Notes: generated by a model not told the origin, from the sequence alone. Shown: positions 1 through 8,504, counted from the first letter of the stretch. The stretch is 8,504 bases of DNA from a virus (IMGVR_UViG_2609459840_000006), one strand, 5' to 3'. Numbers and translations: made by a program.

Positions 1-146
1 CTTACACCGCTTCTCAACCCGGTACGCACCAGAAAATCATTGATATGGCCATGAATGGCGTTGGATGCCGGGCAACTGCCCGCATTATGGGCGTTGGCCT
101 CAACACGATTTTACGTCACTTAAAAAACTCAGGCCGCAGTCGGTAA
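1..146 (+). CDS. insA: IS1 InsA, C-terminal part (5'-partial; frame starts at nt 3)
   Basis: Frame 3 reads [47 protein letters not shown] then TAA at 144-146, matching the InsA C-terminus as I recall it. Confidence 0.85.
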
Positions 147-568
147 CCTCGCGCATACAGCCGGGCAGTGACGTCATCGTCTGCGCGGAAATGGACGAAC
201 AGTGGGGCTATGTCGGGGCTAAATCGCGCCAGCGCTGGCTGTTTTACGCGTATGACAGTCTCCGGAAGACGGTTGTTGCGCACGTATTCGGTGAACGCAC
301 TATGGCGACGCTGGGGCGTCTTATGAGCCTGCTGTCACCCTTTGACGTGGTGATATGGATGACGGATGGCTGGCCGCTGTATGAATTCCGCCTGAAGGGA
401 AAGCTGCACGTAATCAGCAAGCGATATACGCAGCGAATTGAGCGGCATAACCTGAATCTGAGGCAGCACCTGGCACGGCTGGGACGGAAGTCGCTGTCGT
501 TCTCAAAATCGGTGGAGCTGCATGACAAAGTCATCGGGCATTATCTGAACATAAAACACTATCAATAA
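65..568 (+). CDS. insB: IS1 InsB frame; in vivo expressed as InsAB' transposase by -1 frameshift at the A6C motif (122-128)
   Basis: 167-aa ORF in the -1 frame relative to insA. The slippery run ttaaaaaac at 120-128 sits in the insA/insB overlap, and the stop at 566-568 lies inside the right IR. Confidence 0.85.
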
Positions 569-583
569 GTTGGAGTCATTACC
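561..583. repeat. IS1 right terminal inverted repeat (23 bp)
   Basis: atcaataagttggagtcattacc is the reverse complement of the canonical IS1 end ggtaatgactccaacttattgat. Confidence 0.75.
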
Positions 584-589
584 AAAGTT

Positions 590-625
590 ATTAAAAATGG
601 GGCGTTGAAACGCCCCCAAAAATAA
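590..625 (-). terminator. Rho-independent terminator, probably for the porin transcript
   Basis: GC stem ggggcg/cgcccc (599-604 / 611-616) with loop ttgaaa; on the minus strand it is followed by a U-run (atttttaa). It lies 14 bp from the IS1 end. Confidence 0.5.
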
Positions 626-654
626 AGGGTAATATATAACAGAAGGTTTGTATA

Positions 655-740
655 GTTAGAAGCAAGGTTGTGCTTCTAAAGGAAGTGGCTTGAGGGAGCC
701 ACTTATATGTTGGGGAGGCAAAGCCTCCCACAACATATCT
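655..740. other. Three consecutive stem-loops in the porin 3' region
   Basis: agaagca-aggttg-tgcttct (659-678); gtggct-tgaggg-agccac (685-702); and a long hairpin atatgttggggaggc-aaa-gcctcccacaacatat (705-738, about 15 bp stem with one bulge), followed on the plus strand by cttttag. Confidence 0.4.
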
Positions 741-753
741 TTTAGTAATCAAA

Positions 754-1836
754 TTAGAACTGGTAAACCATACCTACAGCAACGATATCATCGGTAGCAA
801 CGCCAGATGCTTTCGTGAAATCGCTCTTATCAATCAGGTTGATTTTGTAGTCAACAAAAGTGGACATATTTTTGTTGAAGTAATAGGTTGCACCTACATC
901 AACATATTCAACCAGGTCCTGATCACCCCAAACACCCAAGTCTTTTCCTTTAGAATGCAGGTAAGCAACGGATGGACGCAGGCCGAAGTCGAACTGATAT
1001 TGTGCAACAGCTTCGAAGTTTTGTGCTTTGTTGGCAATATGGTTATTACCAAAAACAGTCATGTTCTGGGTTTCAGAATAGGTGGTGGCCAGATAGATGT
1101 TGTTCGCATCATATTTCAGACCAGCTGCCCATACTTCAGCATTTTGACCAGAAGCATTCAGACCGTTGTTACCGTAGATAACCTGATTATTAGTGCGATC
1201 AGATTTAGCATAGGTTGCACCCACGCCGAATCCTTCATACTCATAAGTAGTTGAGAAACCGAAACCATCGCCATTAGCTTCAGTTACTTCATTTCGGTCA
1301 TTTTTGCCCTGATACTGAGCTGCAAAGTTCAGGCCATCAACCAGACCAAAGAAGTCGTTGTTACGATAAGTTGCAACACCTGTGGTGCGACCAGTCATGA
1401 ATACATCTGTTTGGGTCCAGGTATCGCCACCGAATTCTGGCAGAACGTCAGTCCACGCACCGATGTCGTATGCTACACCGTAGTTACGGCCGTAATCGAT
1501 TGAGCCGTAGTCACCGAATTTCAGGCCTGCAAATGCAAGACGGGTTTTGTCTTTGGAGGAACCTTGAGATTCAGCGCGGTTGCCTTTGAATTCATATTCC
1601 CACTGACCGAAACCAGTCAGTTGATCGTTGATTTGGGTTTCACCTTTGAAGCCAAGACGGGCATAAGTAGTATCACCATCATCTGCATCATTAGAGGAGA
1701 AGTAGTGCTTAGCATTAACTTTCCCGTACAGATCCAGCTTGTTACTGTCTTTATTATAAATTTCAGCTGCCTGAGCAGACATCGCCATCAGTACTGATGC
1801 AGCTACAGCAGAAATTGCCACTGTTAATTTTTTCAT
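754..1836 (-). CDS. nmpC: Outer-membrane general porin, NmpC / phage Lc type (OmpC/OmpF/PhoE family), 360 aa
   Basis: N-terminal signal peptide [23 protein letters not shown]|AEIYNK, porin motifs throughout and the C-terminal aromatic ..VGMVYQF. The sequence matches my memory of NmpC/Lc. ATG at 1834-1836 on the minus strand. Confidence 0.9.
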
Positions 1837-2165
1837 CGTGAGCCCTTTTTTTTGAACTATTATTAAAAAATGATGTCACTGCGCGATAAATATTCATCTA
1901 ATCAATGTGATTATTTCAAGATGTAAGTTTTAGTTTCTCATTTAATTTGTGAAGTAGATCTCTATTTTTATCTGAACTTTTTCTATCGAAACCTATTTAT
2001 GGCTCTTATTTGAACAAAAATAAACCTATTAGCTAATTTATATTAATGGCTGTTATTTATGGGGGTTCTATAATTCGGCAGTTTAATTTAAATCAACTAA
2101 AAATAACGTCTGAAATTATTTATTGGTTATTTGTTGAGGTTTTCTTATGTATTTGTGGTGGAGTT

Positions 2166-2194
2166 TTGAACACTCGGTAGCATTCTCATAAATA
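2166..2194 (+). promoter_or_regulatory. Candidate sigma70 late promoter (pR'-like) upstream of the lysis cassette
   Basis: TTGAAC (2166-2171), 17-bp spacer, TAAATA (2189-2194); resembles lambda pR' (TTGACT-17-TAAATT) as I recall it. A weak hairpin plus T-runs at about 2259-2300 could be a tR'-like terminator. Unverified. Confidence 0.25.
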
Positions 2195-2424
2195 TCATTC
2201 AGCGGTTTACGTACGTAAAAAATTGGTTATGCTGTTAAGAGTGGTTACTTCGTCACACAGCTTAAACCCGCCGTCGAGCTGGTTTTTCCATTTTTTGAGT
2301 CTCGATATTAGCTGATAACTCAATACCTGAGTTATTCACTGACTCCGAGTCTGTTACGTTTCTGCTTTTTTGCGATACGTTGTATTCCCTCAATTTACAC
2401 CCGCTTTGTCTGCGAGGTGGGGTT

Positions 2425-2640
2425 ATGAAATCCATGGATAAGTTAACAACGGGTGTCGCCTATGGCACCTCAGCAGGTAGTGCCGGTTACTGGTTTTTAC
2501 AGCTGCTCGATAAAGTCACGCCCTCACAGTGGGCAGCAATAGGTGTGCTGGGTAGCCTGGTATTTGGCCTGCTGACGTACCTGACAAACCTTTATTTCAA
2601 GATTAAAGAAGATAAGCGCAAGGCTGCGAGAGGTGAATAA
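2425..2640 (+). CDS. S: Class II holin (pinholin), phage 21 S-type, 71 aa with dual-start motif
   Basis: [28 protein letters not shown].. with Met1-Lys2-Ser3-Met4 dual start and two TMDs, close to S21 from memory. Strong SD gaggtgg upstream of the ATG at 2425. The track's start at 2380 is a TTG extension and was rejected. Confidence 0.88.
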
Positions 2641-3137
2641 TGCCTCCATCATTACGAAAAGCCGTTGCTGCTGCTATTGGTGGCGGAGCAATTGCTATAG
2701 CATCAGTGTTAATCACTGGCCCAAGTGGTAACGATGGTCTGGAAGGTGTCAGCTACATACCATACAAAGATATTGTTGGTGTATGGACTGTATGTCACGG
2801 GCATACAGGAAAAGACATCATGCTCGGTAAAACGTATACCAAAGCAGAATGCAAAGCCCTCCTGAATAAAGACCTTGCCACGGTCGCCAGACAAATTAAC
2901 CCGTACATAAAAGTTGATATACCGGAAACAACGCGCGGCGCTCTTTACTTGTTCGTTTACAACGTGGGCGCTGGCAATTTCAGAACATCGACGCTTCTTC
3001 GCAAAATAAACCAGGGCGATATCAAAGGCGCATGTGATCAGCTACGTCGCTGGACATATGCTGGCGGTAAGCAATGGAAAGGTCTCATGACTCGTCGTGA
3101 GATTGAGCGTGAAATCTGTTTGTGGGGTCAGCAATGA
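2640..3137 (+). CDS. R: SAR endolysin (phage 21 R-type lysozyme), 165 aa
   Basis: N-terminal Gly/Ala-rich signal-anchor-release segment ([20 protein letters not shown]) and catalytic residues at E35, D44, T50 as in R21. The ATG overlaps the holin stop (TAATG). Confidence 0.9.
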
Positions 3138-3601
3138 ACAGAGTAACCGCGATTATCTCCGCTCTGGTTATCTGCATCATCGTCTGCCTGTCATGGGCTG
3201 TTAATCATTACCGTGATAATGCAATCGCCTACAAAGAACAGCGCGATAACAAGGCCAGTGAACTGGAGAAGGCGAACGCCACCATTACTGACATGCAGCA
3301 GCGCCAGCGTGATGCTGATGCACTCGATGATAAATACACGAAGGAGTTAGCTGATGCGAAAGCTGAAAATGATGCTCTTCGGCGCAAGCTTGATAATGGT
3401 GGTCGGGTGCTCGTCAAAGGAAAATGCCCTGTGCCATCCTCAGCCGAAACCTCCAGCGCCTCCGGCATGGGCAATGATGCCACCGTCGAACTCTCTCCAG
3501 TTGCTGGACGAAACGTTCTCGGTATCCGGGACGGAATTATCCGCGACCAAACAGCACTGAGAACGCTTCAGGAATACATCAGGACGCAATGCCTTCGATG
3601 A
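3134..3601 (+). CDS. Rz: Rz i-spanin (inner-membrane spanin subunit), 155 aa
   Basis: [30 protein letters not shown].. is near-identical to the lambda Rz N-terminus, with one TMD and a coiled-coil periplasmic domain. The ATG at 3134 overlaps the R stop (ATGA); the track start at 3122 is GTG. Confidence 0.88.
3354..3560 (+). CDS. Rz1: Rz1 o-spanin lipoprotein, embedded in the +1 frame of Rz, 68 aa
   Basis: [19 protein letters not shown].. has a signal peptide with lipobox (VVGC) and a Pro-rich mature part ([16 protein letters not shown]). Strong SD aaggag 7 nt upstream of the ATG. Lies entirely inside Rz. Confidence 0.8.
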
Positions 3602-3775
3602 TAGCGATAATTTTACTCATCATCCTTCACATCTGGCTCTGTAGACAGGGTGGTGCTCACTTCTGGAGTGAATCCAGATTAAACATCTCATTGCTGATGC
3701 TTGATATTGAGCATTTTGCGCGCGGTAAGGGGCTGCGTTGAGATAAGAGCCAGTCATTACAAATACCAGGATTTA

Positions 3776-3801
3776 GCCTCGCATTCGCGGGGCTTTTTAT
3801 T
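3776..3801 (+). terminator. Rho-independent terminator downstream of the lysis cassette
   Basis: gcctcgc-attc-gcggggc (7-bp stem with one G.U pair) followed by tttttatt. Confidence 0.5.
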
Positions 3802-3807
3802 GCCATT

Positions 3808-3840
3808 ACAAAAGCCACTTCCTACAGAGTGGCTTTGATA
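3808..3840 (-). terminator. Rho-independent terminator for the leftward accessory operon
   Basis: aaagccact-tcctacag-agtggcttt; on the minus strand the 3' arm runs into cttttg. Confidence 0.45.
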
Positions 3841-3882
3841 ATGGCTTATACCCTACACGGGATAACTTAACTGATATCCCTT

Positions 3883-4047
3883 TTAAAGGATAAAGGTATT
3901 CAAGCCTGACACATCATGCGCTGTATCGTCGCCGTATTCCCGTATTAACAGAGACCGTAGCCCGACGGGGAACTCCTTCTGCGCGAGTGTGTGGGAATAA
4001 TCAAAAACGATGCACACCGGGGTTACCGGGTACACATATTTCATCAT
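3883..4047 (-). CDS. Hypothetical small protein, 54 aa (absent from the ORF track, apparently because of a length cutoff)
   Basis: Hand translation: MMKYVYPVTPVCIVFDYSHTLAQKEFPVGLRSLLIREYGDDTAHDVSGLNTFIL*. It lies 45 bp downstream of the ybcV-like stop and just upstream of the minus-strand terminator. The SD is weak. Confidence 0.3.
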   Translation of the reverse strand: MMKYVYPVTPVCIVFDYSHTLAQKEFPVGLRSLLIREYGDDTAHDVSGLNTFIL

Positions 4048-4092
4048 GCCAGCGAGTCCGGTTCTGGCACGGAAGAAACCGGACGTTATGAT

Positions 4093-4503
4093 TTAGTGCG
4101 GAAATATTTGTGTAGTGTTCTGAATGTTCTCAGTAAAGAGTAATGAATTATCAAAGGTATAGTAATACCTTTTGTTTTCGTGGATATTTGTAATCCATCT
4201 GAAAACCCCTGCTGTAGCAAGATTTTTCCTGTATTCGTAAAATGATAACTCTCCTGATTTGAATCCTTTTAAGGTGGCTTCTATAAGGCATTTATTTTTT
4301 GAAAATCTTACATTTACAACCTTACCCTGTCCTTTTATTAAAACCGTATTATCGTTTTCAAGAACAAGATGAATATTCTCTGTGGCTAAATAGTAAATGT
4401 AATGTGAGACATTGTGACGTTTTAGTTCAGAATAAAACCAGTGATAGTTTAAATTATTTCGCACTTTATCGAATATTTGTTTAAAAATGGCAACCTGAGC
4501 CAT
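4093..4503 (-). CDS. ybcV: DUF1398 / YbcV-like prophage protein, 136 aa from the second ATG
   Basis: [80 protein letters not shown] resembles E. coli DLP12 YbcV as I remember it (unverified). The ATG at 4503 has SD ggaagg; the upstream ATG at 4518 has none. Markedly AT-rich. Confidence 0.75.
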
Positions 4504-4559
4504 TGTAGTACCTTCCATGTGATATGAGGGGTGTAGTCTGCACGATTATCTAAATTGCT

Positions 4560-4793
4560 TCAATCTGGTCTGATCTGTTTTCTGAGCAATTCAGTAATGT
4601 CACTCTTTTCTTTGTTTGCTTCAGGAGAAACTCTTTTTTCTGAGCACAGTCTCCGGCGGCAGGCTTCAATGACCCAGGCTGAGAAATTCCCGGACCCTTT
4701 TTGATCAAGAGCGATGTTAATTTGTTCAATCATTTGGTTAGGAAAGCGGATGTTGCGGGTTGTTGTTCTGCGGGTTCTGTTCTTCGTTGACAT
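4560..4793 (-). CDS. Ribbon-helix-helix DNA-binding protein, DUF3950 / YlcI-like, 77 aa
   Basis: Basic N-terminal arm (KNRTRRTTTR), then a beta-strand (NIRFP), helix (NQMIEQINIALDQ), KGSGN turn and helix (FSAWVIEACRRRL): the Arc/MetJ/CopG RHH pattern. Resembles DLP12 YlcI from memory. ATG at 4793. Confidence 0.7.
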   Translation of the reverse strand: MSTKNRTRRTTTRNIRFPNQMIEQINIALDQKGSGNFSAWVIEACRRRLCSEKRVSPEANKEKSDITELLRKQIRPD

Positions 4794-4992
4794 GAGGTTG
4801 TCCCGTATTCAGTGTCGCTGATTTGTATTGTCTGAAGTTGTTTTTACGTTAAGTTGATGCAGATCAATTAATACGATACCTGCGTCATAATTGATTATTT
4901 GACGTGGTTTGATGGCGTAGATGCACGTTGTGACATGCAGATGATAATTATTATCATTTTGCGGGTCCTTTCCGGCGATCCGACAGGTTACG

Positions 4993-5004
4993 GGGCGGCG
5001 ACCT
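4993..5004. other. cosN 12-nt cohesive-end sequence (gggcggcgacct)
   Basis: Exact match to the lambda cohesive end GGGCGGCGACCT, preceded by ..aggttacg, the lambda right end. Confidence 0.8.
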
Positions 5005-5101
5005 CGCGGGTTTTCGCTATTTATGAAAATTTTCCGGTTTAAGGTGTTTCCGTTCTTCTTCGTCGTAACTTAATGTTTTTATTTAAAATACCCCCTGAAA
5101 A

Positions 5102-5156
5102 GAAAGGAAACGACAGGTGCTGAAAGCGAGCTTTTTGGCCTCTGTCGTTTCCTTTC
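5102..5156. repeat. cosB R-element inverted repeat (terminase small-subunit binding sites R2/R1)
   Basis: Perfect 15-bp inverted repeat gaaaggaaacgacag (5102-5116) / ctgtcgtttcctttc (5142-5156), separated by 25 bp; a related tttccgttcttcttcg lies at about 5047-5062 (R3-like). Confidence 0.6.
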
Positions 5157-5181
5157 TCTGTTTTTGTCCGTGGAATGAACA

Positions 5182-5727
5182 ATGGAAGTCAACAAAAAGC
5201 AGCTGGCTGACATTTTCGGTGCGAGTATCCGTACCATTCAGAACTGGCAGGAACAGGGAATGCCCGTTCTGCGAGGCGGTGGCAAGGGTAATGAGGTGCT
5301 TTATGACTCTGCCGCCGTCATAAAATGGTATGCCAAAAGGGATGCTGAAATTGAGAACGAAAAGCTGCGCCGGGAGGTTGAAGAACTGCGGCAGGCCAGC
5401 GAGGCAGATCTCCAGCCAGGGACTATTGAGTACGAACGCCATCGACTTACGCGTGCGCAGGCCGACGCACAGGAACTGAAGAATGCCAGAGACTCCGCTG
5501 AAGTGGTGGAAACCGCATTCTGTACTTTCGTGTTGTCGCGGATCGCAGGTGAAATTGCCAGTATTCTCGACGGGATCCCCCTGTCGGTGCAGCGGCGTTT
5601 TCCGGAACTGGAAAACCGACATGTTGATTTCCTGAAACGGGATATCATCAAAGCCATGAACAAAGCAGCCGCGCTGGATGAACTGATACCGGGGTTGCTG
5701 AGTGAATATATCGAACAGTCAGGTTAA
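5182..5727 (+). CDS. nu1: Terminase small subunit Nu1, 181 aa
   Basis: MEVNKKQLADIFGASIRTIQNWQEQGMPVLRGGGKGNEVLYDSAAVIKWY.. is essentially identical to lambda gpNu1 from memory, with a winged-HTH N-terminus. The 3' end overlaps the A start as in lambda. Confidence 0.95.
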   Translation: MEVNKKQLADIFGASIRTIQNWQEQGMPVLRGGGKGNEVLYDSAAVIKWYAKRDAEIENEKLRREVEELRQASEADLQPGTIEYERHRLTRAQADAQELKNARDSAEVVETAFCTFVLSRIAGEIASILDGIPLSVQRRFPELENRHVDFLKRDIIKAMNKAAALDELIPGLLSEYIEQSG

Positions 5728-7168
5728 CAGGCTGCGGCATTTTGTCCGCGCCGGGCTTCGCTCACTGTTCAGGCCGGAGCCACAGACCGCCGTTGAATGG
5801 GCGGATGCTAATTACTATCTCCCGAAAGAATCCGCATACCAGGAAGGGCGCTGGGAAACACTGCCCTTTCAGCGGGCCATCATGAATGCGATGGGCAGCG
5901 ACTACATCCGCGAGGTGAATGTGGTGAAGTCTGCCCGTGTTGGTTATTCCAAAATGCTGTTGGGTGTTTATGCCTACTTCATAGAGCATAAGCAGCGCAA
6001 CACACTTATCTGGTTGCCGACGGATGGTGATGCCGAGAACTTTATGAAAACCCACGTTGAGCCGACCATCCGCGATATTCCGTTGCTGCTGGCGCTGGCT
6101 CCGTGGTATGGCAAAAAGCACCGGGATAACACGCTCACCATGAAGCGTTTTTCCAATGGTCGTGGCTTCTGGTGCCTGGGCGGTAAAGCGGCAAAAAACT
6201 ACCGTGAAAAGTCGGTGGATGTGGCGGGGTATGATGAACTTGCTGCCTTTGATGAGGATATTGAACAGGAAGGCTCTCCGACGTTCCTTGGCGACAAACG
6301 TATTGAAGGCTCGGTCTGGCCAAAGTCCATCCGTGGCTCCACCCCCAAAGTGAGAGGTACCTGCCAGATTGAGCGTGCAGCCAGTGAATCCCCGCATTTT
6401 ATGCGTTTTCATGTTGCCTGTCCGCACTGCGGGGAGGAGCAGTACCTTAAATTTGGCGATAAAGAGACGTCGTTTGGCCTCAAATGGACGCCGGATGATC
6501 CCTCCAGCGTGTTTTATCTCTGCGAACATAATGCCTGCGTCATCCGCCAGCAGGAACTGGACTTCACTGATGCCCGTTATATCTGCGAAAAGACCGGGAT
6601 CTGGACCCGTGATGGCATTCTCTGGTTTTCGTCATCCGGTGAAGAGATTGAGCCGCCGGACAGCGTGACCTTTCACATCTGGACGGCGTACAGCCCGTTC
6701 ACCACCTGGGTGCAGATTGTCAAAGACTGGATGAAAACGAAAGGGGATACGGGAAAACGTAAAACCTTCGTAAACACCACGCTCGGTGAGACGTGGGAGG
6801 CGAAAATTGGCGAACGTCCGGATGCTGAAGTGATGGCAGAGCGGAAAGAGCATTATTCAGCGCCCGTTCCTGACCGTGTGGCTTACCTGACCGCCGGTAT
6901 CGACTCCCAGCTGGATCGCTACGAAATGCGCGTATGGGGATGGGGGCCGGGTGAGGAAAGCTGGCTGATTGACCGGCAGATTATTATGGGCCGCCACGAC
7001 GATGAACAGACGCTGCTGCGTGTGGATGAGGCCATCAATAAAACCTATACCCGCCGGAATGGTGCAGAAATGTCGGTATCCCGTATCTGCTGGGATACTG
7101 GCGGGATTGATCCGACCATTGTGTATGAACGCTCGAAAAAACATGGGCTGTTCCGGGTGATCCCATAA
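5702..7168 (+). pseudogene. A: Terminase large subunit A, truncated after codon 488 by IS186
   Basis: GTG start (as in lambda); MNISNSQVNRLRHFVRAGLRSLF... is near-identical to lambda gpA through ..KKHGLFRVIP, then TAA at 7166-7168 inside the IS186 terminal repeat. Lambda gpA is 641 aa, so about 150 C-terminal residues are missing from this reading frame. Confidence 0.9.
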
Positions 7169-7186
7169 GCGCTAACTTAAGGGTTG
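7164..7186. repeat. IS186 terminal inverted repeat (gene A-proximal end)
   Basis: cataagcgctaacttaagggttg; its reverse complement is found at 8480-8502. Confidence 0.75.
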
Positions 7187-7334
7187 AACCATCTGAAGAA
7201 TGCGACGCCTCGGTGCCTCGTTAAGACGATGCCTCGCGTTCTTCAATTGCGTTTTGTAGGCTGTCAGGGATACTGTCCCACGAATGGCCACCTGTAAGCT
7301 CCAGATGACCATTTTTGTTATTCTCCACAACGAG

Positions 7335-8447
7335 TTAGTTCTTCTTTTCGGATCCGGCACTTCTGGGGGGGAAATCCAGCGATGGCTGGATTATGTCGTC
7401 AATTAAAAATGCGGCGAGTAGATTAGCAAATATCCACGCTTTCGCGAGTTCAGGTTCCTTTGCACGCAAAGCATCCAGGTGCAGCAAACTTTTGAGCCGC
7501 TTAAAAGCCAGTTCAATTTGCCATCGCAGACGGTAACAATCAGCCACTTGCTCTGCTGAATATTCATCTTCCGGTAATGATGTTAGCAATAGCACATGGC
7601 CCGCTGCTTCCAGCGTTTCCGCCTGAACTACTCGTCCTTTTCGACGATTCTCGCTGAGCAGTCGGGTTTTACTGATTAATGCTTTTTCGGGAGGAAGTGA
7701 TACGGCAATGAGACGTGCCGGAAAGGGAGCTCCGGCTTTTTTATTACCTGAATTGCCTATCATTACAGTGGTTTCACCGTTCTTACCGCAATCCAGCCCG
7801 CGCAGAAAACCCATCATGTCAAAGCGCATTCCTTCTGCAGTTAACCAGCGCAATCCTCGCCAGTGAACCCGGACGATATAATCAGCTTCTCCAAAAGCAA
7901 GTGAGCGGATACATTCGGGACGCGAACCGAATCCCCGGTCAGCAATGCGTATCTCGTCTGCCGTTTGCGCAAATCGGTCCAGCCGTTCAGCGTCTCTGCT
8001 GTCGGTTAGCTCAAAATCAGTGAACTGACAGGTATGAGGATCATATCCCATATGTAGTCGCCATTCAGCGCTGCCGCCCCCGGGCGCACTGATTGCTGTT
8101 CCATCGACAAGACGCAATCTCTTTCCGCTTGTACAACCCGTAACTGCGGCGCGTACAGCAAGTGTTTGTGCGGCAAGTATGCCAAACCAGTCGGCGGCAT
8201 TCCGCAGCCGCTTCAGGAGAGCCACGTCAGATAATGTTGCAACGTCATGGAGCTGAGCCCATGCAGTGACTTCACGTAATGACATCCCCCCGGGGCCGTA
8301 AGCCAGCCCCAGACGTAGCAGAGTTGCAGCATCACGAATTTCGCGGCGGCGGGTTAGAGCCCCGGCATTACGTGCCGAAGTATCCAGTTCTTCGGGCTTA
8401 CCAATATGGGCCAGAATTGCTGACCAGTTATCGTGAGAGTAATTCAT
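7335..8447 (-). CDS. IS186 transposase (IS4-family DDE transposase), 370 aa
   Basis: MNYSHDNWSAILAHIGKPEELDTSARNAGALTRRREIRD.. matches the IS186 transposase as I recall it. ATG at 8447; the track start at 8453 is GTG. Confidence 0.9.
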   Translation of the reverse strand: MNYSHDNWSAILAHIGKPEELDTSARNAGALTRRREIRDAATLLRLGLAYGPGGMSLREVTAWAQLHDVATLSDVALLKRLRNAADWFGILAAQTLAVRAAVTGCTSGKRLRLVDGTAISAPGGGSAEWRLHMGYDPHTCQFTDFELTDSRDAERLDRFAQTADEIRIADRGFGSRPECIRSLAFGEADYIVRVHWRGLRWLTAEGMRFDMMGFLRGLDCGKNGETTVMIGNSGNKKAGAPFPARLIAVSLPPEKALISKTRLLSENRRKGRVVQAETLEAAGHVLLLTSLPEDEYSAEQVADCYRLRWQIELAFKRLKSLLHLDALRAKEPELAKAWIFANLLAAFLIDDIIQPSLDFPPRSAGSEKKN

Positions 8448-8479
8448 CGGCACGTTAAATCATATCAGGCGTAATACCA

Positions 8480-8502
8480 CAACCCTTAAGTTAGCGCTTA
8501 TG
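8480..8502. repeat. IS186 terminal inverted repeat (transposase-proximal end)
   Basis: caacccttaagttagcgcttatg is the reverse complement of 7164-7186. Confidence 0.75.
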
Positions 8503-8504
8503 GG

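What the first reader, a model, noticed from the sequence alone, without database searches (positions are those of the whole stretch)
4960..5180. Intact lambda-type cos site retained next to a disrupted terminase
cosN (gggcggcgacct, 4993-5004), the upstream lambda right-end sequence and the cosB inverted R elements (5102-5116 / 5142-5156) are all present, and Nu1 is intact. The prophage genome could therefore still be packaged in trans by a superinfecting or co-resident lambda-like helper terminase, which would mobilise the porin and accessory genes.
Basis: partly seen in the sequence, partly recalled or inferred. Interest (0 to 1): 0.4.

Follow-up and report, generated by a model that had tools for sequence, protein, structure and literature searches.

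The report
Intact lambda cos in decayed prophage
This is a genuine, sequence-intact phage-lambda DNA-packaging site (cos) left in a very recently damaged lambda-like prophage of E. coli; such sites are present in most E. coli genomes, and its position means a helper phage would package DNA away from the porin gene, not carry it off.

Summary
Window 4960-5180 is a complete lambda-type cos. cosQ, the 22-bp cosN, I2, R2 and R1 are identical to lambda; R3 differs at one base (lambda bp 53), outside the TerS-contacted bp 55-63. All six differences from the lambda reference also occur in isolated phages and in K-12 DLP12. Nu1 is intact (179/181 identical, DNA-binding domain unchanged). Gene A is cut after codon 488 by IS186.

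A lambda-specific terminase supplied in trans should recognise and nick this cos. However, lambda packaging runs one way, from cos into Nu1/A/head-tail genes, while the porin and lysis genes lie upstream. Finishing a particle needs a second cos; the nearest complete relative (ES1) has none within 58 kb either side. All three genomes sharing the window's IS1/porin junction have lost int-to-Q, so the element has no excision or replication functions of its own.

The cos is intact because decay is recent (2 differences in 6,581 bp from an intact prophage), and it is no better conserved than its flanks. The realistic route for gene movement is cos-stimulated homologous recombination with an infecting lambdoid phage, as shown for DLP12. 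Lambda-type cos occurs in 4,590 of 5,426 E. coli genomes. Already known; low interest.

The parts
4631..4992 (+). Lambda right-end homology (lambda 48141-48502), ending at the top-strand nick site
   Evidence: blastn 4631-7164 vs the lambda junction, 97.4% in one block; base-level alignment
4963..4969 (+). cosQ (GGGTCCT), the packaging-termination subsite
   Evidence: 7/7 identical to lambda 48473-48479 with identical spacing to cosN; role from PMC4669245
4988..5009 (+). cosN nicking site (22 bp); the 12-base cohesive-end sequence is 4993-5004
   Evidence: 22/22 identical to lambda; the 12-mer is unique in the window, 0.02 expected; DE3 record annotates the same 12-mer as 'cos site'
5010..5042 (+). 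I2, AT-rich bent spacer between cosN and cosB (lambda bp 18-50)
   Evidence: 33/33 identical, no indel; I2 is essential and the cosN-cosB spacing is critical (PMC4856287)
5042..5057 (+). cosB R3, TerS (Nu1) binding site (lambda bp 50-65); one change, C53T at window 5045
   Evidence: 15/16 identical; TerS contacts bp 55-63 and known defective mutations are at 56, 58, 59 (PMC9026076); 53T is present in phages PhiR29_1, 2H10, Stx1_112808 and in K-12 DLP12
5058..5100 (+). R3-R2 interval containing the IHF site I1; two substitutions (lambda 73 A>G at 5065; 102 T>C at 5094)
   Evidence: Alignment; both variants occur in several isolated phages; position of I1 from PMC4669245. The exact I1 boundaries were not determined here
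5101..5116 (-). cosB R2 (inverted relative to R3 and R1)
   Evidence: 16/16 identical to lambda 109-124; perfect reverse complement of R1
5142..5157 (+). cosB R1
   Evidence: 16/16 identical to lambda 151-166
5182..5727 (+). Nu1 / nohD, terminase small subunit (TerS), intact, 181 aa
   Evidence: 179/181 identical to lambda Nu1 (E52K, L132I); recognition helix 17-24 and wing 31-39 unchanged; Pfam Phage_Nu1
5702..7164 (+). 5' 76% of terminase large subunit gene A (gpA residues 1-488 of 641); the stop codon at 7166-7168 is supplied by IS186
   Evidence: 483/488 identical to lambda gpA, then truncated; the exact product is found on 5 contigs
7165..8502 (-). IS186 inserted in gene A after lambda bp 2173; the contig ends at its outer end
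   Evidence: 100% identity over 1,344 bases to K-12 IS186A in inverted orientation; IS4-family transposase
1..583 (+). Right part of an IS1 copy abutting the porin region; marks the deletion of int-to-Q in related genomes
   Evidence: Pfam DDE_Tnp_IS1; identical junction in ES1, ET76 and EC6, where int' lies on the other side of IS1
754..1836 (-). Phage-borne OmpC-family porin (Lc/NmpC type), upstream of cos
   Evidence: NCBIfam porin OmpC subfamily, 515 bits; 99.6% DNA identity to isolated phage ev099 and 91.6% to the PA-2 lc locus
2425..3601 (+). Lysis cassette (essD holin, rrrD lysozyme, Rz-like), upstream of cos
   Evidence: Pfam holin / lysozyme / Phage_lysis; RefSeq annotation in ES1

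Best explanation
Window 4960-5180 is a genuine lambda-specificity cos site (cosQ-cosN-I2-R3-I1-R2-R1). It sits in its normal place between the late/lysis region and Nu1, in a lambda-like prophage that has only just begun to decay. By near-identity to complete genomes, that prophage is integrated at att-lambda between ybhC and ybhB.

The site is intact because the damage is recent, not because it is being maintained. The damage is an IS1-associated loss of int-to-Q and an IS186 insertion in gene A.

Mechanistically (inferred), when a lambda-specificity terminase is supplied by an infecting or co-resident phage, TerS should bind R3/R2 across the IHF bend and TerL should nick cosN. That creates a chromosomal double-strand break and starts one-way packaging toward Nu1, A::IS186, the head-tail genes and the bio side of the chromosome. 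With no second cos downstream the particle cannot be finished, which is the outcome described for excision-defective lambda prophages.

The porin/lysis side becomes the free, recombinogenic end. Genes next to such a cos are therefore realistically moved by homologous recombination with an infecting lambdoid phage, not by packaging of the remnant.
For: Shown:
- Base-by-base identity to lambda at all critical subsites and spacings.
- All six variant positions are present in isolated phages and in K-12 DLP12, and those carriers have the same Nu1 DNA-binding domain.
- The R3 change lies outside the contacted bp 55-63 and away from the known defective positions 56, 58 and 59 (PMC9026076).
- Lambda x DLP12 recombinants that took over DLP12 nu1 were all active phages. 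Recombination there was about 100-fold higher than with Rac or Qin, and half the junctions mapped at cos (PMC3945230).
- Recency: 2 differences in 6,581 bp from the near-complete prophage of PSS-13 and 4 in 7,164 bp from ES1.
- The cos interval is 97.3% identical to lambda against 97.4% for the whole 4631-7164 block, so there is no extra conservation.
- Gene order ybhC-int-...-Q-porin-lysis-cos-Nu1-A-...-J-ybhB-bio.
- One cos in 116 kb of ES1.

From the literature: packaging direction and the two-cos requirement; immature particles from excision-defective lambda prophages.
Against: - No biochemical or genetic test of this particular allele was possible here.
- C53T alters the first base of the CGTTTCC core shared by lambda R1, R2 and R3, so a quantitative reduction in TerS binding cannot be excluded.
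- The window is a whole draft contig bounded by IS copies. The chromosomal site, the loss of int-to-Q, the presence of the rest of gene A and the head-tail genes, and the absence of a nearby second cos are all inferred from near-identical complete genomes, not seen in the source strain.
- E. coli genomes carry a median of 2 lambda-type cos sites, so a second cos at a suitable distance in the source genome is not formally excluded.
Confidence: 0.8

Rival explanations
1. One reading: the remnant behaves like a helper-dependent satellite. A superinfecting or co-resident lambda-like phage packages the whole defective prophage from its cos and transduces the porin and accessory genes.
For: - The cos is intact and of lambda specificity.
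- Precedent: O157 Sakai Sp4 (nu1::IS, cos identical to Sp14) is packaged in trans (PMC2669165).
- The parental Int is 354/357 identical to lambda Int, and ES1 keeps two lambda att cores 33,258 bp apart. A lambda helper could in principle supply Int and Xis and excise the element.
- Tandem prophages are packaged cos-to-cos by helpers in the laboratory (PMC4669245).
Against: - The porin is upstream of cos, while packaging proceeds downstream.
- There is a single cos within +/-58 kb in ES1.
- int is truncated and xis, immunity, replication and Q are deleted in all three genomes that share the window's IS1 junction. There is therefore no concatemer formation.
- An excised circle would be about 33.3-34.6 kb (69-71% of lambda), below lambda's lower packaging limit of roughly 78% (my knowledge of the published limits).
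- Sp4 needed its own Int and regional amplification.
Confidence: 0.07
2. The cos only looks intact. The R3 C53T change, together with the I1-region changes at lambda bp 73 and 102, makes it a poor or dead terminase substrate, so nothing happens at this site.
For: C53T hits the first base of the CGTTTCC core conserved in lambda R1, R2 and R3. R3 is the most critical R site (PMC9026076).
Against: - The same three changes occur together in isolated phages PhiR29_1 and 2H10, in an Stx1 phage and in K-12 DLP12. Their Nu1 DNA-binding domain is identical to lambda's.
- Lambda recombinants carrying the DLP12 nu1 region are viable (PMC3945230).
- bp 53 lies outside the contacted bp 55-63.
- Lambda still grows without IHF, at about 30% yield (PMC4856287).
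Confidence: 0.05
3. The cos (with Nu1) is kept by selection because it benefits the host, for example as a decoy that diverts or titrates an invading phage's terminase, or as a programmed break site.
For: Lambda-type cos with nohD/nohA is present in 4,590 of 5,426 E. coli genomes, often in remnants. Cleavage at a prophage cos has been proposed to occur during infection (PMC3945230).
Against: - The cos interval is no better conserved than its flanks (97.3% vs 97.4%).
- The element differs by only 2-4 bases from intact or less-decayed copies, so neutral persistence explains it.
- Ubiquity is explained by the abundance of lambda-like prophages.
- There is no experimental evidence for a protective role.
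Confidence: 0.03

Closest known systems
Phage lambda cos (NC_001416, junction of bp 48502 and bp 1)
   Same: Same subsite set, order and spacing. cosQ, cosN, I2, R2 and R1 are identical and R3 is 15/16. It lies directly upstream of a Nu1 with an identical DNA-binding domain.
   Different: Five substitutions (lambda 48471, 48486, 53, 73, 102), plus the reference-specific extra G at lambda 138. It lies in a chromosome as a single copy within a decayed prophage, not in a replicating concatemer.
cos / nohD region of the K-12 cryptic prophage DLP12 (qsr')
   Same: DLP12 carries all six of the window's cos variants. It has the same DLP12-type late module (porin-essD-rrrD-Rz ... ylcI-cos-nohD). Its terminase A gene is also disabled. 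It is a proven partner for cos-proximal recombination with lambda (PMC3945230; PMC545071).
   Different: - DLP12 is annotated at 564755-586056 of MG1655; the relatives of this element sit at att-lambda.
- In DLP12, aaaD is a 309-bp deletion remnant fused toward tfaD; here A is 76% present and split by IS186.
- K-12 nmpC is broken by IS5; the porin here is intact.
- DLP12 has further cos-region differences (lambda 48472, 85, 187-188).
O157 Sakai prophage Sp4, a terminase-defective lambdoid prophage packaged in trans (PMC2669165)
   Same: An IS insertion in a terminase gene, with an intact cos that matches a co-resident prophage's terminase specificity.
   Different: Sp4 keeps its integrase, excises to a circle, and is amplified by regional replication of the neighbouring Sp5 before packaging. 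The relatives of this element have lost int (N-terminus), xis and the replication genes.
Passive tandem-prophage / cosmid packaging, and one-cos packaging from excision-defective lambda prophages (Sternberg & Weisberg 1975)
   Same: A chromosomal cos is used by a helper's terminase, with polarity from cos toward A-J and the bio side.
   Different: Productive packaging in those systems relies on two same-orientation cos sites a genome-length apart. Here only one is present in the nearest complete genome.
Gram-negative PICIs with cos sites (Penades and Feiss work; PMC9026076, PMC6739421)
   Same: The concept of a chromosomal element that relies on a helper's terminase and capsids.
   Different: According to that literature (abstract and section titles), PICIs excise, replicate, encode Rpp to redirect TerS, and are proposed to bind Rpp-TerS at a site with a completely different sequence. 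This element has a lambda cosB, and no PICI-type gene is present in the window.

Membership tests
Lambda-type complex cos site | 12-base cohesive-end sequence within a partly symmetric cosN of about 22 bp | tested here: met
   22/22 identical to lambda; the 12-mer is at 4993-5004 and unique in the window, with 0.02 expected
Lambda-type complex cos site | 7-bp cosQ upstream of cosN at the lambda spacing | tested here: met
   GGGTCCT at 4963-4969, 23 bp before the cohesive-end sequence, as in lambda 48473-48479
Lambda-type complex cos site | I2 segment and exact cosN-to-cosB spacing | tested here: met
   Lambda bp 18-50 are 33/33 identical, with no indel between cosN and R3. A 3-bp deletion between cosN and cosB already causes a severe packaging defect, and 7- and 11-bp deletions are lethal
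Lambda-type complex cos site | Three TerS-binding R sites in the order R3-(I1)-R2-R1, with R2 inverted | tested here: met
   R2 and R1 are 16/16 and form a perfect inverted repeat. R3 is 15/16 (C53T), outside the contact region bp 55-63
Lambda-type complex cos site | IHF binding site I1 between R3 and R2 | tested here: inconclusive
   The interval is conserved except for lambda 73 A>G and 102 T>C, both found in isolated phages. IHF binding itself cannot be tested here, and IHF is not essential for lambda
Lambda-type complex cos site | Adjacent TerS gene whose winged-helix domain matches the R sites | tested here: met
   Nu1 is 179/181 identical; the two changes (E52K, L132I) lie outside the recognition helix (residues 17-24) and the wing (31-39)
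Lambda-type complex cos site | Is actually nicked by terminase and supports packaging | not testable with these tools
   Only indirect evidence is available: the same variants occur in plaque-forming phages, and lambda/DLP12 recombinants are viable
Helper-packaged defective element (Sp4-type prophage, PICI or cosmid-like) | cos matching a helper's terminase specificity | tested here: met
   Lambda-specific cosB and cosN. N15-specific terminase also packages lambda cos, while 21-specific terminase does not
Helper-packaged defective element (Sp4-type prophage, PICI or cosmid-like) | Own excision function | tested here: not met
   Not visible in the window. In all three complete genomes with the same IS1/porin junction, int lacks its N-terminus and xis is deleted. 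The att cores survive in ES1
Helper-packaged defective element (Sp4-type prophage, PICI or cosmid-like) | Replication or amplification to give multimeric (two-cos) substrates | tested here: not met
   The replication genes present in PSS-13 are absent from ES1, ET76 and EC6. ES1 has a single cos in 116 kb
Helper-packaged defective element (Sp4-type prophage, PICI or cosmid-like) | cos-to-cos length within the capsid's packaging limits | tested here: not met
   The att-to-att length is 33,258 bp in ES1. Adding IS186 gives about 34.6 kb, or 69-71% of 48,502 bp. The lower limit of about 78% is from my knowledge of the lambda literature
DLP12 cryptic prophage of K-12 | DLP12-type late module (Q-porin-essD-rrrD-Rz ... 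cos-nohD) | tested here: met
   Window 812-3381 is 90.8% and 4631-6009 is 98.0% identical to MG1655 DLP12; the gene order is the same
DLP12 cryptic prophage of K-12 | Same chromosomal insertion as DLP12 in K-12 | tested here: not met
   Near-identical copies in ES1, ET76, EC6 and PSS-13 lie between ybhC and ybhB (att-lambda), not inside the DLP12 interval of MG1655. The site in the source strain itself is not visible

The most novel reading that the evidence does not exclude
The orphan cos works in nature as a cosmid-like handle. A lambda-type helper supplies Int and Xis (the att cores survive) as well as terminase. The roughly 34-kb remnant is excised and, by recombination with the helper or by tandem helper integration, ends up between two same-orientation cos sites. 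It is then transduced, taking the intact porin with it. This would be an att-lambda counterpart of the O157 Sp4 case.
Probability: 0.06. Interest if true: 0.3.

Novelty: already known. Interest (0 to 1): 0.1.

Why it matters
It matters little beyond correct annotation. The site is a textbook lambda cos in a common type of E. coli prophage remnant, so it should be annotated as cos, and the short ORF called across it should be treated as spurious.

The useful general point concerns how to read such sites. An intact cos beside a broken terminase does not by itself make the neighbouring cargo mobilisable. Direction of packaging, a second cos, excision and replication all have to be considered. For such remnants the documented route of gene flow is recombination with infecting lambdoid phages, which is stimulated at cos.

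Tried and rejected
- Searched for the source genome's downstream context with the unique A/IS186 junction in genome contigs: no match.
- The exact-protein look-up then showed that the window is a whole 8,504-bp draft contig ending in IS copies, so nothing beyond IS1 or IS186 can be read. Context had to be inferred from ES1, ET76, EC6 and PSS-13.
- A literature search for 'docL' returned only irrelevant papers. The Sternberg & Weisberg 1975 work could be reached only through papers that cite it.
- An Rfam scan of the window found nothing.
- NCBIfam gave no hit for Nu1 or gpA.
- The '1-bp deletion' at lambda 138 was considered as a possible lesion in the R2-R1 spacer. It was rejected because DE3 and all other phages share it.
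- Selection-driven retention of cos was considered and rejected, because the interval is no better conserved than its flanks and the whole element is only 2-4 substitutions from less-decayed copies.
- PICI membership was considered and rejected: the cosB is lambda-type, and the window contains only lambdoid late and packaging genes.

Full report
**What the window is.**
- The 8,504-bp window is an entire contig (JNMU01000082.1) of draft assembly GCA_000700625.1.
- It begins inside an IS1 copy (1-583) and ends at the outer end of an IS186 copy (7165-8502). That copy is 100% identical over 1,344 bases to K-12 IS186A and encodes an IS4-family transposase.
- Between the two IS copies lies the late region of a lambdoid prophage:
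  - an OmpC-family porin on the minus strand (754-1836);
  - holin, lysozyme and an Rz-like gene (2425-3601);
  - a DUF1398 gene and a ylcI-like gene on the minus strand;
  - a non-coding stretch;
  - Nu1/nohD (5182-5727);
  - the first 488 codons of terminase gene A (5702-7164).

**Check of the observation.** I built the true lambda cos junction from NC_001416 (last 300 bp plus first 760 bp) and aligned it to window 4693-5752. I then extracted each subsite.
- Identical to lambda: cosQ GGGTCCT (4963-4969), the 22-bp cosN (4988-5009, cohesive-end sequence 4993-5004), I2 (5010-5042), R2 (5101-5116) and R1 (5142-5157).
- R2 and R1 form a perfect 16-bp inverted repeat.
- Other differences in 4960-5180 are lambda 48471 A>G, 48486 T>C, 73 A>G, 102 T>C and a 1-bp gap at lambda 138.
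- The cohesive-end 12-mer occurs once in the window, against 0.02 expected.
- The 231-bp interval matches lambda-group phages at E values around 1e-108.
- Nu1 is a full 181-aa ORF, 179/181 identical to lambda.
- gpA is 483/488 identical over residues 1-488 of 641 and then runs into IS186.
- The same truncated product is found on five independent contigs, so the insertion is real and not an assembly artefact.

**Are the differences harmful?** Subsite definitions come from the Feiss-lab papers.
- Initiation needs cosN plus cosB. I2 and the cosN-cosB spacing are critical. R3 spans bp 50-65, TerS contacts bp 55-63, and known packaging-defective R3 changes lie at bp 56, 58 and 59 (PMC4669245; PMC4856287; PMC9026076).
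- The window's R3 change at bp 53 lies outside that segment, although it does alter the first base of the CGTTTCC core shared by lambda's three R sites.
- I aligned the cos regions of seven isolated phages, DE3, ES1, PSS-13 and K-12 DLP12. Every one of the six differences occurs in isolated phages. PhiR29_1 and 2H10 carry all six together, and so does DLP12.
- The gap at lambda 138 is shared by all of them, including the lambda derivative DE3, so it is a peculiarity of the reference record.
- The Nu1 DNA-binding domain is identical in lambda, the window, NohD and all phages carrying 53T. There is therefore no compensating change, and 53T is tolerated by a lambda-type TerS.
- Lambda x DLP12 recombinants, including those that took over DLP12 nu1, were all active phages (PMC3945230).

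I conclude that the cos is very probably functional with lambda-specificity terminase. This is inferred from comparison, not from a biochemical test.

**Context and age.**
- Complete genomes show what the element is. In strain PSS-13 the same sequence (2 differences in 6,581 bp) is part of a near-complete lambda-like prophage between ybhC and ybhB. Its order is int-xis-exo-bet-gam-repressor-replication genes-nin region-quuD-porin-lysis-cos-Nu1-A-...-J-lom-tail fibres.
- The PSS-13 Int is 354/357 identical to lambda Int.
- Three complete genomes (ES1, ET76, EC6) share the window's exact IS1/porin junction at 99.9% identity. In all three the other side of IS1 is an integrase fragment lacking its N-terminus, so everything from int to Q is gone. 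In those genomes gene A is intact and the full head-tail set follows.
- The window's strain therefore most likely carries the same deletion plus a newer IS186 hit in A. None of 5,426 complete genomes has that insertion.
- Lambda homology runs uninterrupted from 4631 to 7164 at 97.4%, and the cos interval itself is 97.3% identical (6 differences in 221 bp). The cos is thus no better preserved than its neighbours. Its integrity is explained by the youth of the damage, not by selection.
- Lambda-type cos is close to universal in E. coli: 4,590 of 5,426 complete genomes have a match, with a median of two copies per genome.

**What a helper terminase would do here.**
- Lambda packages DNA in one direction, starting from the cosB/Nu1 end (PMC10287942). 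After nicking, terminase stays on the cosB end, while the cosQ-bearing end is exposed to nucleases (PMC4856287).
- Finishing a particle requires cosQ plus cosN of the next cos downstream (PMC4669245; PMC6687093).
- Laboratory packaging of passive prophages by a helper uses two tandem prophages for exactly this reason.
- In this element the porin and lysis genes are upstream of cos. Downstream lie Nu1, A::IS186 and, by analogy with ES1, the head-tail genes, attR, ybhB, bio and uvrB.
- In ES1 I searched 116 kb centred on the element and found a single cosQ-cosN unit, with nothing else within 58 kb on either side.
- The expected outcome is therefore a chromosomal break and unterminated, non-infectious filled heads carrying the Nu1-side DNA. 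This is the outcome reported for excision-defective lambda prophages (Sternberg & Weisberg 1975, as cited in PMC8008629).

**The loophole.**
- ES1 keeps two lambda att cores in direct repeat, 33,258 bp apart. A lambda helper could in principle excise the remnant by supplying Int and Xis.
- The product would be a non-replicating circle with one cos. With IS186 it would be about 34.6 kb, or 69-71% of lambda. That is below the roughly 78% lower limit for lambda packaging, which I cite from my own knowledge of the literature.
Its nu1 is disrupted by an IS and its cos is identical to Sp14's, and it is packaged in trans. That happened only after Int-mediated excision and amplification by a neighbouring prophage's replication (PMC2669165). 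Neither condition is available here.

**How neighbouring genes really move.**
- For DLP12, a marker placed in the lambda-homologous region around cos is picked up by infecting lambda about 100-fold more often than markers in Rac or Qin. Half of the junctions lie at cos, and the authors attribute this to terminase-made breaks (PMC3945230). Poteete's group likewise found that DLP12 cos is the dominant crossover site (PMC545071).
- The porin-holin cassette is already ordinary cargo of isolated phages: ev099 at 99.6% identity and the PA-2 lc locus at 91.6%.
- In this strain the left-hand homology (nin/Q) has probably been deleted. Capture of the porin by double crossover is therefore less likely here than in an intact copy. 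This last point is inference.

**Verdict.** The feature is already known, in kind and almost in sequence (K-12 DLP12, lambda). Interest is low.

Noticed in passing
window 1-8504: The window is a complete draft-assembly contig (JNMU01000082.1, GCA_000700625.1) whose two ends fall in IS1 and IS186 copies. Nothing beyond these repeats can be read, so 'disrupted' describes the junction only, not what follows it.
   Followed up: yes
window 754-1836 (- strand): The phage-borne OmpC-family porin (Lc/NmpC type) is intact here (360 aa), unlike the IS5-broken nmpC of K-12. The same cassette is 99.6% identical in isolated phage ev099 and 91.6% identical to the PA-2 lc locus.
   Followed up: partly
lambda NC_001416 bp 138 / window 5129-5130: The lambda reference record has an extra G (GAGGC against GAGC) in the R2-R1 spacer. 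DE3, all seven isolated phages examined, DLP12 and this window lack it. It looks like a reference-specific base, not a deletion elsewhere.
   Followed up: partly
window 4899-5042 (+ strand): A 47-aa ORF is called as a gene across cosQ/cosN in the assembly's gene calls. Similar 'hypothetical proteins' are annotated over cos in several phage records (for example Kati and PhiR11_1). These are most likely spurious calls over a non-coding packaging site.
   Followed up: no
window 5335 (Nu1 codon 52): Nu1 carries E52K. This change is absent from lambda, K-12 NohD and the seven phages compared, but it appears to be shared with ES1 and PSS-13: it is not among the window-vs-ES1 differences, and RefSeq gives both genomes the same NohD protein. 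It lies outside the recognition helix and the wing.
   Followed up: partly
window 7155-7164 and 8503-8504: IS186 sits after GGGTGATCCC in gene A, inside the lambda sequence GGGTGATCCCCATTAAAGGGG. The two bases after the IS (GG) are consistent with the start of a target-site duplication of that G/C-flanked decamer. The contig ends before this can be verified.
   Followed up: partly
L018 31546-32877 (ES1, next to attR): In ES1 a sensor-domain diguanylate cyclase gene lies between the tail-fibre remnants and the attR core/ybhB. It is apparently prophage cargo at the right end of the element.
   Followed up: no
L015 13777-14109 (PSS-13 prophage): The near-complete att-lambda prophage of PSS-13 carries emrE (an SMR efflux pump) and a DLP12-like nin/quuD module. 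It is thus a mosaic of lambda-type int, recombination and structural genes with a DLP12-type late module. It also has its own IS1 insertion at a different site.
   Followed up: no
L021 4754-6515 (EC6): In strain EC6 a second IS1 copy lies immediately beside the 5' end of the porin gene, whose annotated coding sequence is about 16 codons shorter than in ES1. This shows repeated IS1 activity in this remnant.
   Followed up: no
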